Shown one piece after another: positions 15,948 through 18,759 of a DNA stretch of 64,000 nucleotides; position 1 is the stretch's first letter; each line of letters begins with the position of its first letter. Both the position numbers and the translations under genes were made by a program. This DNA comes from the human T2T-CHM13v2.0 reference genome, Homo sapiens. A model generated the notes under the pieces. It ran no database searches. It saw nothing but the letters and a program-made list of their open reading frames with translations, and was not told where the DNA came from. Location of the stretch: contig CP086569.2 in assembly GCA_009914755.4 (NCBI GenBank), forward strand, positions 13,344,001-13,408,000. The letters run 5' to 3'.

Positions 15948-16204
15948 GATGGTCTATAAGCTTTTGCATCCCATTGGTGATTGAGTCTTGGTTCTGAAGG
16001 TTTGCATGTATATCCACTCAATAAATTTATACGTTTTTTTCTCCTGTTAATTAAGCTGCCTCATTTCAGTGATTCAGAGAAAACTTAGGGGGCCAAGAGC
16101 CTTGGCTCTCACAAAGCCTAATCAGACTATATCAAAAAAAAGAAAAGAAAAGAAAAGAAAAAAGTACTTCCCACATTACCAGAGCTCTTGGCACGTATTA
16201 GTTT

Positions 16205-18134
16205 TTGTTTGTTTGTTTGTTTTAGTATTTATTGATCATTCTTGGGTGTTTCTCAGAGAGGGGAATGTGACAGGGTCATAGGATAATAGTGGAGGGAAGG
16301 TCAGCAGACAAACATGTGAACAAGGGTCTCTGGTTTTCCTAGGCAGAGGACCCTGCGGCCTTCCGCAGTATTTGTGTCCCTGGGTACTTGAGATTAGGGA
16401 GTGGTGATGACTCTTCACGAGCATGCTGCCTTCAAGCATCTGTTTAACAAAGGACATCTTGCACCACCCTTAATCCATTTAACCCTGAGTGGACACAGCA
16501 CATGTTTCAGAGAGCACAGGGTTGGGGGTAAGGTTATAGATTAACAGCATCCCAAGGCAGAAGAATTTTTCTTAGTACAGAACAAAATGGAGTCTCTCAT
16601 GTCTACTTCTTTCTACACAGACACAGTAACAATCTGATTTCTCTTTCTTTTCCCCACATTTCCCCCTTTTCTTTTCGACAAAACCGCCACGTCATCATGG
16701 CCCATTCTCCCTGGTCGCTGTCTCTTCGGAGCTGTTGAGTACACCTCCCAGATGGGGCGGCCGGGCAGAGGCACTCCTCACTTCCCAGACGGGACGGCCG
16801 GGCAGAGGCGTTCCTCACTTCCCAGACAGGGCGGCCAGGCAGAGGTGCTCCTCACTTCCCAGATGATGGGCAGCAGGGCAGAGGCGCTCCCCACTTCCCA
16901 GATGGGGTGACGGCCGGGCAGAGGCGCTCCTCACCTCCCAGACAGGGCGGCCAGGCAGAGGTGCTCCTCACATCCCAGACGCGGTGGCGGCCGGGCAGAG
17001 GCGCTCCTCACTTCCCAGAAGGGGCGGCCAGGCAGAGGCGCTCCTCACATCCCAGACGCGGTGGCAGCCGGGCAGAGGTGCTCCTCACCTCCCAGACGGG
17101 GTGGCCGGGCGGAGGCGCTCCTCAAATCCCAGACGGGGTGGCTGGGCGGAGGGTCTCCTCACTTCCCAGATGACGTGGCGGCCAGGCAGAGGCACTCTTC
17201 ACCTCCCAGACGGGGCAGCCAGGCAGAGGCACTCCTCACTTCCCAGACAGGGCAGCCGGGCAGAGGCACTCCTCACTTCCCAGACGGGGTGGCGGCCGGG
17301 CAGAGGCACTCCTCACCTCCCAGACGCGGTGGTGGCTGGGCAGAGGTGCTCCTCACCTCCCAGATGGGGCGGCTGGGCAGAGGCGCTCCTCACATCCCAG
17401 ATGATGGGCAGCCAGGCAGAGGCGATCCTCACCTCCAAGACCGGGTGGCCAGGCAGAGGCGCTCCTCACCTCCCAGCCAGGGTGGCCGGGCAGAGGCTCT
17501 CCTCACTTCCCAGACGGGGTGGCCGGGCAGAGGCGCTCCTCACTTCCTAGATGGGGTGGCAGCCAGGCAGAGGTGCTCCTCACTTCCCAGATGGGGCGAC
17601 CGGGCAGAGGGGCTCCTCACATCCTGGACCATGGGCGGCCAGGCAGAAATGCTGCTCACTTCCTAGACGGGGTGGCGGGCGGGCAGGGGCTGTAATCTTA
17701 GCACTTTGGGAGGCCAAGGCAGGCGGCTGGGAGGTGGAGGTTGTAGTGAGCCGAGATCACGCCACTGCACTCCAGCCTGGGCAACACTGAGCACTGACTG
17801 AGCAAGACTCCGTCTGCAATCTCAGCACCTCGAGAGGCCGAGGCAGGCAGATCACCCAAGGCCAGGAGCTGGAGACCAGCCTGGTCAACATGGCGAAACC
17901 CCGTCTCCATCAAAAATACAAAAACCAGTCAGGAGTGGCGGCGCGTGCCTGGAATCCCAGGCACTGGGCAGGCCGAGGCAGGAGAATCACGGGAGCCCAA
18001 GGCAGGGAGGTTGCAGCGAGCTGAGATCATGGCAGTACAGTCCAGGCTGGGCAAGAGAGGGAGACCGTAGAAAGAAGAGGGAGAGGGAGACAGAAGGAGG
18101 GGGAGGGGGAGGGGAAGAGGGAGAGGGAGAGGGG
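16205..18134 (-). mobile_element. Full-length SVA retrotransposon (minus-strand poly-A, SINE-R, GC-rich VNTR, Alu-like, CCCTCT hexamers)
   Basis: (TTTG)n tail then tatttattgatcattcttgggtgtttctcagagagggg...ttcctaggcagaggaccctgcggccttccgcagt (SINE-R reverse-complement) at 16226-16700. Then a VNTR of 35-50 bp units cagacggggcggccgggcagaggcgctcctcacttcc at 16700-17690, antisense Alu-like at 17690-18050, and agagggagagggagac...gagggagagggg at 18060-18134. Target-site duplications gcacgtattagttt (16191-16204) and catgtattagtttt (18135-18148). Confidence 0.93.
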
Positions 18135-18170
18135 CATGTATTAGTTTTAACCAAAAAGATGGTTACTCAA

Positions 18171-18305
18171 GGCTGGGTGCAGTAGCTGACGTCTGTAACC
18201 CCAGCACTATGAGAGGCTGAAGAGAGCAGATCACCTGAGGTCAGGAGTTCAAGACCAGCCTGACCAACATGGTAAAACCCCGTCTCTATTAAAACTAAAA
18301 AAATT
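18171..18305 (+). mobile_element. Alu fragment (left arm), part of a composite Alu insertion
   Basis: ggctgggtgcagtagctgacgtctgtaaccccagc...gtctctattaaaactaaaaaaattagcc. Confidence 0.8.
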
Positions 18306-18604
18306 AGCCAGGCACAGTGGCTCATGCCTGTAATCCCAGCGCTCTGGGAGGCTGAGGCAGATGGATCACCTGAGGTCAGGAGTTCAAGACCAATCTGACC
18401 AACATGGTGAAACCCTGTGTCTACTAAAAATACAAAAATTAGGGGGAGCTGGTGGCACATGCTTGTAATCCCAGCTACTTGGAGGCTGAGGCAGGAGAAT
18501 CATTTGAACCCGGGAGGCCAAGGTTGCAGTGAGCAGAGATTGCACCACTGCACTCCAGCCCGGGCAACAAGTGAAACCCTGTCTCAAAAAAAAAAAAAGA
18601 AAGA
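18306..18604 (+). mobile_element. Alu SINE, full length. The whole 18171-18604 block is bounded by a 16-17 bp target-site duplication
   Basis: gccaggcacagtggctcatgcctgtaatcc ... gtctcaaaaaaaaaaaaagaaagaaa. Duplication aaaagatggttactcaa at 18153-18170 and 18605-18620. Confidence 0.85.
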
Positions 18605-18759
18605 AAAGATGGTTACTCAATTCATTGAAGGTGTGCAAAACTGTTAACAAAGAGAAAATGTTAAACTCAACCAAGCGAAGAACCCCTGTTTATGGCTCCT
18701 GTAGAACACTGCTTTAATTCTGGGCATAACCACCACCCAAAAGTGTTTTCTTGCTTTTT

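What the first reader, a model, noticed from the sequence alone, without database searches (positions are those of the whole stretch)
16191..18620. Full-length SVA and a composite Alu inserted 2-4 bp apart, each with its own long target-site duplication
A 1.93 kb SVA on the minus strand has the full structure of (TTTG)n tail, SINE-R, about 1 kb GC-rich VNTR, Alu-like region and CCCTCT hexamers. It has 14 bp target-site duplications, gcacgtattagttt and catgtattagtttt. Immediately next to it sits a 1.5-unit Alu block with a 16-17 bp duplication, aaaagatggttactcaa. Reconstructing the empty site gives ...cttggcacgtattagttttaaccaaaaagatggttactcaattcattg, so two independent L1-mediated insertions hit an A/T-rich target within a few bases. 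SVA is hominoid-specific, frequently polymorphic, and a known source of regulatory and splicing effects. Its VNTR produces the striking periodic ORFs at 16907-17790 (repeating ...AGQRRSSPPRRGG.AEALLTSQTGW.GRGAPHFPDGV...).
Basis: partly seen in the sequence, partly recalled or inferred. Interest (0 to 1): 0.5.

Follow-up and report, generated by a model that had tools for sequence, protein, structure and literature searches.

The report
Old SVA_A retrotransposon beside an Alu
This is an ordinary, ancient, full-length SVA retrotransposon of the oldest subfamily (SVA_A) that landed a few bases from an older Alu repeat, an arrangement already documented and explained by the target preference of the LINE-1 endonuclease.

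Summary
A 1,927-nt SVA lies on the minus strand (16206-18132) with every canonical module. It is flanked by a 16-nt duplication with one CpG>TpG mismatch (16190-16205 / 18133-18148). Four to five bases away sits a left-left-right Alu "sesquimer" (18171-18603), flanked by a perfect 17-nt duplication. In 400 random position pairs the best duplication-like match was 13 nt, usually 5-8.

The subfamily is SVA_A. The VNTR has 24 units of 40, 39 or 37 nt plus the terminal unit. It starts with the published A-B-C-A array, has an irregular interior, and contains none of the units that mark SVA_B to SVA_F. The SINE-R is 95.8% identical to the published SVA_A consensus. Three sites carry the younger state, so an A-to-B transitional copy is not fully excluded.

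The SVA target is a perfect 5'-TTTT/AA-3' site. The Alu (AluS-like) is older, so the SVA inserted next to a pre-existing Alu duplication. Raiz et al. saw this in 5 of 11 de novo SVA insertions. No polymorphic SVA_A-C insertions were found by Chu et al. 2023, so presence/absence polymorphism is unlikely.

The "periodic ORFs" are a by-product of a repeat that almost lacks stop codons on one strand. The finding is already known and of low interest.

The parts
16190..16205 (.). SVA target-site duplication, copy next to the SVA 3' end (GGCACGTATTAGTTTT)
   Evidence: family D12, 15 of 16 identical to 18133-18148. Unique in the window.
16206..16223 (-). SVA A-rich tail, (CAAA)n-like on the element strand (18 nt)
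   Evidence: Read directly from the sequence. It sits between the duplication and the AATAAA signal.
16224..16745 (-). SINE-R module, made of HERV-K env 3' end plus an LTR5 with a 365-nt internal deletion; AATAAA signal at 16228-16233
   Evidence: 95.8% identical to the published SVA_A SINE-R consensus after homopolymer correction. It matches HERV-K proviruses L013 and L015 and the in-window LTR5 in two blocks that skip 365 nt of LTR.
16746..17689 (-). VNTR: 24 units of 40, 39 or 37 nt plus a terminal unit; order A-B-C-A-C-C-C-B-C-A-A-C-C-A-C-C-A-C-A-C-A-B-C-C-T
   Evidence: TRF and unit parsing. It has no GGGAGGTGGGG-type units, and the pattern matches the published SVA_A schemata.
17690..18052 (-). 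Alu-like region, consisting of Alu fragments antisense to the SVA
   Evidence: BLAST to an Alu consensus finds 17690-17786 and 17811-18065 on the + strand. There is a weak SRP hit at 17802-17909. The region aligns end to end with a recalled SVA 5' consensus.
18053..18132 (-). CT-rich (CCCTCT)n hexamer region, the 5' end of the SVA
   Evidence: TRF period 6. There are 5 exact CCCTCT within the first 90 nt, and the composition is 90-100% C/T apart from the internal ACGG motif at about element position 65.
18133..18148 (.). SVA target-site duplication, copy next to the SVA 5' end (GGCATGTATTAGTTTT); the L1 endonuclease site TTTT/AA spans 18145-18150
   Evidence: family D12.
18149..18153 (.). Spacer AACC(A) between the two duplications
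18154..18170 (.). Alu target-site duplication, 5' copy (AAAAGATGGTTACTCAA)
   Evidence: family D11, 17 of 17.
18171..18305 (+). Extra Alu left monomer plus A-rich linker (LM1); it joins the next unit inside the stretch where left and right monomers are homologous (TTAGCC|AGGCACAGTGGCTCA)
   Evidence: SRP hit at 18172-18288. 85.9% identical to a recalled AluSq consensus against 77.8% to AluJo.
18306..18603 (+). Full dimeric AluS-type element (18306-18585) with its A-rich tail (18586-18603)
   Evidence: SRP hits at 18307-18423 and 18448-18587. 87.3% identical to a recalled AluSq consensus.
18604..18620 (.). Alu target-site duplication, 3' copy
   Evidence: family D11.

Best explanation
There were two separate LINE-1-driven retrotransposition events at one A/T-rich spot.

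First event (inferred from divergence): an AluS-type element inserted in + orientation. The bottom strand was nicked at ...CTTTT(T)/(T)GG, which produced the 17-nt duplication AAAAGATGGTTACTCAA. That Alu now carries an extra left monomer. The cause was either unequal exchange between left and right monomers, or a second Alu that primed at the old tail and resolved by homology.

Second event, many millions of years later: a full-length SVA_A RNA was reverse-transcribed by L1 ORF2p from a nick at a perfect 5'-TTTT/AA-3' site on the + strand, 4-5 nt upstream of the Alu's 5' duplication. This gave a minus-strand SVA flanked by a 14-16-nt duplication.

Shown here: the structure, the duplications, the nick-site motifs and the subfamily features. 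Inferred: the order of the two events, their ages, and fixation in the population.

The element is now an old and probably immobile, fixed copy. The long VNTR ORFs exist only because the repeat unit has almost no stop triplets on the + strand.
For: - Duplications are far beyond chance.
- All SVA modules are present and in order: CT hexamers, Alu-like region, VNTR, SINE-R, AATAAA signal and A-rich tail.
- The SINE-R is the HERV-K env 3' end plus LTR5 lacking 365 nt. This was shown against real proviruses and against an LTR5 in the same window.
- SVA_A assignment from the VNTR: it contains only 40/39/37-nt (A/B/C) units, opens with A-B-C-A, and has an irregular 24-unit interior. It has zero GGGAGGTGGGG units. 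This matches the published SVA_A schemata and not the fixed A-B-C-A-B'-C-A-A-C-A... arrays of SVA_B and SVA_C.
- SVA_A assignment from the SINE-R: 95.8% identity to the published SVA_A consensus.
- Nick sites: TTAGTTTT/AACCAA for the SVA, and ACCATCTTTT/TGG or ...TTTTT/GG for the Alu. The published hallmarks are TTTT/AA and 4-20-bp duplications (PMC3287187).
- Order of events: SVA non-CpG divergence is 2.95+-0.79%, against 4.6+-1.4% for the full Alu unit and 10.3+-3.0% for LM1. CpG decay is 21% in the SVA against 39-49% in the Alu.
- Adjacency is expected. Five of 11 de novo SVA insertions went into or next to Alu duplications. In this window TTTTAA sites are threefold enriched within 40 nt of Alu ends.
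- ORFs: 6 stop triplets on the + strand of the VNTR against 25 on the - strand, and no Pfam family above its cutoff.
Against: - Three SINE-R sites (GTCCACTC, GGGTCC, CTTCCCTCC) carry the state seen in younger SVAs rather than the published SVA_A state.
- The published consensus was available only as a machine-read PDF with homopolymer errors, which I corrected using real HERV-K and SINE-R sequences.
- The Alu consensus sequences and the 0.15%/Myr rate are recalled from memory, so ages are rough.
- The Alu nick site is not the canonical TTTT/AA.
- The species and genomic locus of the window could not be established. Orthologous empty or filled sites were therefore not examined, and fixation is inferred from literature on the subfamily rather than observed.
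Confidence: 0.93

Rival explanations
1. The SVA belongs to SVA_B or SVA_C, or to an A-to-B transitional lineage, rather than to SVA_A proper.
For: Three SINE-R positions carry the state found in younger SVAs. Chu et al. note that the A/B relationship is unsettled in their tree.
Against: The VNTR lacks the fixed SVA_B/C array (A-B-C-A-B'-C-A-A-C-A) and all E/G/H/I units, and at 24 units it is long like SVA_A. At the remaining sites where the published SVA_A consensus differs from a recalled younger consensus, the copy has the A state. These sites include the CCGAAGAGACAGCGACCA segment, GTCGAAAAGAAAAG, CAGATTGTTACTG, GATGCTGTTAATCTATAACC, TATTATCC and CCACAT.
Confidence: 0.1
2. This concerns the origin of the Alu block. 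The 1.5-unit Alu may not be a simple internal duplication. Instead, a second Alu may have primed reverse transcription at the old Alu's tail and duplication, with its 5' end resolved by homology with the old right monomer. That would replace the old right monomer and leave the old left monomer (LM1) and the old duplications in place.
For: LM1 has about twice the non-CpG divergence of the full unit: 10.3+-3.0% against 4.6+-1.4% (12/117 against 11/237; my hand chi-square on these counts gives p of about 0.04). The junction lies exactly in the 16-nt stretch where left and right monomer starts are homologous. No separate duplication flanks the full unit.
Against: The difference is marginal and rests on a consensus recalled from memory. 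Both left monomers are the same S-type. Unequal left/right-monomer exchange, or a pre-duplicated source gene, explains the same structure.
Confidence: 0.3
3. The Alu is part of the SVA insertion, either as a 5' transduction or as an Alu-flanked composite like CH10_SVA_F, and is not an independent event.
For: The Alu lies immediately next to the SVA 5' end. Alu-flanked SVA variants do exist.
Against: The SVA's own duplication closes between the hexamer region and the Alu (18133-18148). The Alu has its own perfect 17-nt duplication, wholly outside the SVA's. The Alu is markedly more diverged than the SVA.
Confidence: 0.02
4. The periodic VNTR ORFs encode a real repeat protein.
For: Three overlapping ORFs of 88-201 aa on the + strand.
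Against: All three frames are open at once, because the unit has almost no stop triplets on that strand: 6 in 949 nt against 25 on the other strand. Unit lengths of 37 and 40 nt rotate the frame, so the "period" is the 114-nt three-unit cycle. No Pfam family passes its cutoff. The exact ORFs are absent from a 15-billion-protein collection. The ORFs are antisense to the element's transcript.
Confidence: 0.01

Closest known systems
SVA_A subfamily of SINE-VNTR-Alu retrotransposons (Wang et al. 2005; VNTR schemata in Lupan et al. 2015, PMC4432496)
   Same: The module order is the same: CT hexamers, antisense Alu-like region, VNTR, SINE-R, AATAAA signal and A-rich tail. The VNTR opens with A-B-C-A, has a long irregular interior built only from A/B/C units, and ends with a terminal T unit. 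The SINE-R retains the HERV-K env segment CCGAAGAGACAGCGACCA. The overall length of about 1.9 kb matches the published SVA_A examples.
   Different: Three SINE-R sites show the state typical of younger subfamilies. The tail is short and has degenerated to (CAAA)n. The copy has about 3% private non-CpG changes.
[quoted passage not shown] 2012, PMC3287187)
   Same: The SVA nick site is a perfect TTTT/AA a few bases from an Alu's 5' duplication, in locally A/T-rich sequence (65% A+T against 56% for the window). The duplication length falls within the reported 8-19 nt.
   Different: This is an ancient genomic event, not a cell-culture de novo insertion.
Independent SVA insertions within 1 nt of each other at CABIN1 and NPLOC4 (Damert 2018, PMC6139936)
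   Same: Recurrent use of one L1-endonuclease hot spot by separate retrotransposition events.
   Different: Here the two events are an Alu and an SVA in the same genome, on opposite strands.
HERV-K (HML-2) LTR5, the parent of SINE-R
   Same: The SINE-R aligns at 92.8-94.5% to an LTR5 in the same window (26491-27456), and at 94.5-96.2% in its 5' block (84.7-87.4% in the 3' block) to provirus env-LTR junctions.
   Different: The SINE-R lacks 365 nt of the LTR interior and stops at the LTR's AATAAA signal.

Membership tests
SVA retrotransposon | 5' (CCCTCT)n hexamer region | tested here: met
   About 80 nt, 90-100% C/T apart from the internal ACGG motif. TRF finds period 6, and there are 5 exact CCCTCT in the first 90 nt.
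SVA retrotransposon | Alu-like region made of Alu fragments antisense to the element | tested here: met
   Alu-consensus BLAST hits at 17690-17786 and 17811-18065 on the strand opposite the SVA. There is a weak SRP hit. The region aligns end to end with a recalled SVA 5' consensus.
SVA retrotransposon | GC-rich VNTR of 35-50-bp units | tested here: met
   24.7 copies of a 37-nt period at about 70% G+C. The parsed units are 37, 39 or 40 nt long.
SVA retrotransposon | SINE-R derived from the HERV-K env 3' end plus LTR | tested here: met
   Matches HERV-K proviruses and the in-window LTR5 in two blocks that skip 365 nt. 95.8% identical to the published SINE-R consensus.
SVA retrotransposon | Polyadenylation signal, A-rich tail, and flanking target-site duplication at an L1 endonuclease site | tested here: met
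   AATAAA at 16228-16233 (-). An 18-nt (CAAA)n tail. A duplication matching at 15 of 16 positions. A TTTT/AA nick site.
SVA_A subfamily | VNTR made only of A/B/C(/D/X) units, opening with A-B-C-A, with an irregular interior and no E/G/H/I/F/K/L units | tested here: met
   One search compared with the published schemata.
SVA_A subfamily | SINE-R diagnostic substitutions | tested here: inconclusive
   Most informative sites carry the A state, but 3 sites carry the younger state.
Alu (AluS-type) SINE | 7SL-derived left and right monomers joined by an A-rich linker, with an A tail and a target-site duplication | tested here: met
   Three SRP-like monomer hits. An 18-nt A-rich tail. A 17 of 17 duplication.
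Alu (AluS-type) SINE | S-subfamily diagnostic sequence | tested here: inconclusive
   The best match is AluSq/Sx at 86-87%, against 78-81% for AluJo and AluY. The consensus sequences were recalled from memory.
L1-mediated target-primed reverse transcription | Nick at the 5'-TTTT/AA-3' consensus | tested here: met
   SVA: TTTT/AA, an exact match. Alu: TTTT/TG or TTTTT/GG, a tolerated variant. The consensus is from PMC3287187.
Polymorphic (recently active) SVA | Young subfamily (D/E/F), near-identical duplications, long pure poly(A) tail | tested here: not met
   SVA_A features, a decayed CpG in the duplication, an 18-nt degenerate tail, and about 3% non-CpG divergence. No polymorphic A-C insertions were reported.

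The most novel reading that the evidence does not exclude
The left-left-right Alu may record a non-classical event. A second Alu would have primed at the first Alu's tail and been resolved by homology with the old right monomer, leaving no new duplication. The SVA may also be an A-to-B transitional copy. Neither possibility is excluded, and neither would be more than a small addition to known retrotransposon biology.
Probability: 0.25. Interest if true: 0.12.

Novelty: already known. Interest (0 to 1): 0.06.

Why it matters
It matters little beyond annotation. The locus is a clean textbook example of nested L1-mediated insertions and of L1 endonuclease re-using A/T-rich sequence next to an existing Alu. 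SVA_A copies are old and, according to the published catalogue I consulted, not insertion-polymorphic. The medically interesting properties of SVAs (new insertions, splicing disruption) therefore apply only weakly to this copy. VNTR length could still vary between individuals and could influence nearby gene regulation, but that is generic to thousands of SVAs.

Tried and rejected
- I looked up ten junction, flank and VNTR ORFs by exact sequence in the 15-billion-protein collection, hoping to reach other assemblies of this locus. None was on record.
- I scanned metagenome and prokaryote-genome contigs for the unique left flank CCACATTACCAGAGCTCTTGGCA, which would retrieve filled or empty alleles. 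There were no matches.
- I scanned the same collections for the SVA_A-type SINE-R 5' segment. This returned 19 contigs, but 17 were HERV-K proviruses rather than SVAs, with no VNTR upstream. They were still useful as the SINE-R parent.
- The other two contigs (L001, L007) carry the SINE-R-type deletion. They are mixed in type, and L007 is probably a chimeric assembly, so I did not use them as a subfamily reference.
- Rfam at gathering thresholds found nothing in the window. The sub-threshold mir-1268 and mir-3135 hits are Alu-derived.
- Pfam on the VNTR ORFs gave only a sub-cutoff spurious RHS_N hit.
- I rejected a free left Alu monomer (FLAM) as the identity of the extra monomer, because it is S-type (85.9% to AluS against 77.8% to AluJ).
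- I rejected a second Alu inserted classically into the linker, because no right-monomer remnant or second duplication follows the tail.
- I could not establish the species or chromosomal position of the window.
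Full report
**1. Observation**

The repeat finder reports two flanking direct repeats:
- GGCACGTATTAGTTTT (16190-16205) and GGCATGTATTAGTTTT (18133-18148), matching at 15 of 16 positions.
- AAAAGATGGTTACTCAA (18154-18170 and 18604-18620), matching at 17 of 17.

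Neither sequence occurs elsewhere in the 64-kb window. As a control I took 400 random position pairs at the same spacing, allowed +-10 nt of sliding and one mismatch, and found a best match of 13 nt and typically 5-8 nt. The only SVA mismatch is CpG>TpG. The spacer between the two duplications is AACC(A), 4-5 nt.

**2. Anatomy of the SVA (minus strand, 16206-18132, 1,927 nt)**

In element orientation the modules are:
- **CT-rich hexamer region**, about 80 nt (18053-18132). TRF finds period 6 and there are 5 exact CCCTCT in the first 90 nt.
- **Alu-like region** (17690-18052). An Alu consensus matches it on the opposite strand, as expected for antisense Alu fragments. There is a weak SRP-RNA hit. 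The region aligns end to end with a recalled SVA 5' consensus.
- **VNTR** (16746-17689). TRF gives 24.7 copies of a 37-nt period, with 77- and 114-nt super-periods and about 70% G+C.
- **SINE-R** (16224-16745), which ends in AATAAA at 16228-16233.
- **Tail**: an 18-nt (CAAA)n A-rich tail (16206-16223).

The duplications abut the hexamers and the tail directly, so there is no 5' or 3' transduction.

**3. The SINE-R tested against its parent**

A self-search found a second SINE-R-like sequence at 26655-27458 (-), split by about 365 nt. Reading it shows a HERV-K LTR5 running from TGTGGGG to CCCCTTCA at 26491-27456.

A scan for the SINE-R 5' segment returned 19 contigs. These are mostly human DNA in skin and other metagenomes. 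Seventeen turned out to be HERV-K proviruses, with env upstream and no VNTR.

Against proviruses L013 and L015 and against the in-window LTR, the SINE-R aligns in two blocks at 85-96% identity. The alignment skips 365 nt of LTR and begins in env at GGTGTACCCAACAGCTCC. This is the known derivation of SINE-R, shown here with real sequences.

**4. Subfamily**

*VNTR evidence.* Lupan et al. 2015 (PMC4432496) describe the VNTR repeat-unit types. A (40 bp), B (39 bp) and C units are ancestral. Units E, G, H and I appear with SVA_B, and units F, K and L appear with SVA_D to SVA_F. Their per-element schemata show two clear patterns:
- SVA_A elements have long, irregular arrays built from A/B/C(/D/X) units after a 5' A-B-C-A.
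- SVA_B and SVA_C elements have short arrays with the fixed order A-B-C-A-B'-C-A-A-C-A followed by E/G/H/I units.

The window's VNTR parses into 24 units of 40, 39 or 37 nt plus the terminal unit. Their order is A-B-C-A-C-C-C-B-C-A-A-C-C-A-C-C-A-C-A-C-A-B-C-C-T. The GGGAGGTGGGG motif of the younger units does not occur at all. This is the SVA_A pattern.

*SINE-R evidence.* The same paper's supplement gives the SVA_A SINE-R consensus (SVA_PA_1, stated to be identical to human SVA_A). Raw identity to the window's element is 93.1%. Most of the gaps are homopolymer-length errors from machine reading of the PDF, because real HERV-K and SINE-R sequences agree with the window at those positions. After correcting those positions, identity is 95.8%: 14 of 475 non-CpG sites and 6 of 28 CpG sites are changed.

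The element has the A state at most sites where the SVA_A consensus differs from a recalled younger consensus. Three sites (GTCCACTC, GGGTCC, CTTCCCTCC) have the younger state. An A-to-B transitional copy therefore cannot be fully excluded, and I give it about 10%.

**5. The Alu block (18171-18603, + strand)**

Rfam's SRP model hits three monomers, at 18172-18288, 18307-18423 and 18448-18587. The structure is a left monomer plus linker, followed by a full dimeric Alu and an 18-nt A-rich tail.

Both parts match AluS-type consensus sequences best (86-87%, against 78-81% for AluJ and AluY; the consensus sequences are recalled from memory). The extra monomer is therefore not an ancient free left monomer.

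The junction (TTAGCC|AGGCACAGTGGCTCA) lies in the stretch where the starts of the right and left monomers are homologous. The 17-nt duplication brackets the whole block. This indicates one original insertion plus a homology-driven rearrangement. Two mechanisms fit:
- unequal exchange between left and right monomers;
- a second Alu that primed at the old tail and resolved by homology.

The second is weakly favoured, because the extra monomer is about twice as diverged at non-CpG sites (10.3+-3.0% against 4.6+-1.4%; my hand chi-square on the 12/117 and 11/237 counts gives p of about 0.04).

**6. Mechanism and order of events**

For the SVA, the + strand reads TTAGTTTT/AACCAA at the junction. This is an exact match to the L1 endonuclease consensus 5'-TTTT/AA-3' (consensus and hallmarks from Raiz et al., PMC3287187). 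For the Alu, the minus strand reads ACCATCTTTT/TGG, or ...TTTTT/GG if the first A of the duplication is counted. The two first-strand nicks are on opposite strands, 4-5 nt apart, within T4-AACC-A5. The duplications extend outwards from this centre.

The Alu is more decayed than the SVA: 39-49% of its CpG sites are changed against 21% in the SVA, and its non-CpG divergence is higher. The SVA therefore most likely inserted next to a pre-existing Alu duplication.

Using a recalled rate of 0.15% per Myr, the non-CpG divergences give roughly 15-20 Myr for the SVA and 30 Myr or more for the Alu. These ages are rough. SVA_A is dated at about 13.6 Myr by Wang et al. 2005, as cited in PMC3606032.

**7. 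Is the adjacency surprising?**

It is not, for four reasons:
- Raiz et al. report that 5 of 11 de novo SVA insertions went into Alu duplications or adjacent sequence. They attribute this to those A/T-rich sequences being L1 endonuclease sites.
- Damert 2018 documents independent SVA insertions 1 nt apart at CABIN1 and NPLOC4.
- This window has 37 Alu intervals, excluding the SVA's own Alu-like region. A zone of +-10 to +-25 nt around Alu ends covers 1.2-3.0% of the sequence. With 5,107 reference SVAs, uniform chance alone would give about 60-150 such cases at this Alu density.
- TTTTAA sites are threefold enriched within 40 nt of Alu ends: 15.1% of sites fall in 4.8% of the area.

**8. Polymorphism**

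I could not map the window to a genome, so catalogues could not be queried by position. The subfamily argues against presence/absence polymorphism. Chu et al. [quoted passage not shown] The decayed CpG in the duplication and the short, degenerate tail fit an old, fixed copy. VNTR length variation remains possible.

**9. The "periodic ORFs"**

ORFs of 88, 188 and 201 aa overlap in all three + frames. The VNTR has only 6 stop triplets on the + strand. It has 25 on the - strand, 23 of them TGA from the GTGAGG motif.

Units of 37 and 40 nt rotate the reading frame, so one unit is read in all three frames over a 114-nt (38-aa) cycle. No Pfam family passes its cutoff, and the ORFs are antisense to the SVA transcript. 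They are a compositional artefact.

**10. Verdict**

The object is a typical old SVA_A beside an AluS-type sesquimer. Both the element and the arrangement are already described in the literature. Interest is low.

Noticed in passing
window 26491-27456 (-): A HERV-K (HML-2) LTR5-type solo LTR (TGTGGGG...CCCCTTCA), the parental sequence of SINE-R, lies about 10 kb from the SVA. The flanking 6-mers (GAGTCT / GCCTTT) do not match, so there is no obvious target-site duplication.
   Followed up: partly
window 36323-36796 (-): This ORF hits the retroviral envelope family TLV_coat (E = 8.7e-5, just below the Pfam cutoff). It suggests the internal region of an endogenous retrovirus somewhere around 30-38 kb.
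   Followed up: no
window 15617-16165 (+): Just upstream of the SVA there is what looks by eye like an old L1 3' end (15617-15950), followed by an A/GAAAA-rich run (16133-16165). Several retroelement tails are therefore stacked within 600 nt of the insertion site.
   Followed up: no
window 18171-18230 (+): The first 60 nt of the extra Alu left monomer carry a cluster of changes, including 6 G>A, mostly in GG context. The rest of the monomer is nearly consensus. This could be chance, or it could be cytidine-deaminase editing of the cDNA.
   Followed up: no
window 17811-18065 and 18171-18585 (+): The SVA's Alu-like region and the neighbouring Alu block are direct repeats (74% identity over 185 nt), only about 100 nt apart. 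They are a possible but weak substrate for Alu-Alu recombination.
   Followed up: no
window 18872-19414 (-): Two tandem Alu elements lie on the minus strand about 250 nt downstream. They account for the sub-threshold mir-1268 and mir-3135 Rfam hits here; a separate mir-3135 hit at 18507-18566 falls in the finding's own Alu block. The Alu-like intervals found by BLAST (the SVA's own Alu-like region included) cover about 15% of the window.
   Followed up: partly
L007 (OONO01000010.1), around 8350-9000: This contig joins HERV-K env directly to a SINE-R-type (365-nt-deleted) LTR that ends in poly(A). Its 5' half is HERV-K/A-type and its 3' half is young-SVA-type. It is most likely a chimeric assembly of a provirus and an SVA.
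   Followed up: partly
L001 (NRRR01000079.1, Chromatium weissei assembly): A 554-nt contig in a bacterial genome assembly is a human SINE-R/SVA fragment, i.e. human contamination of that assembly.
   Followed up: no
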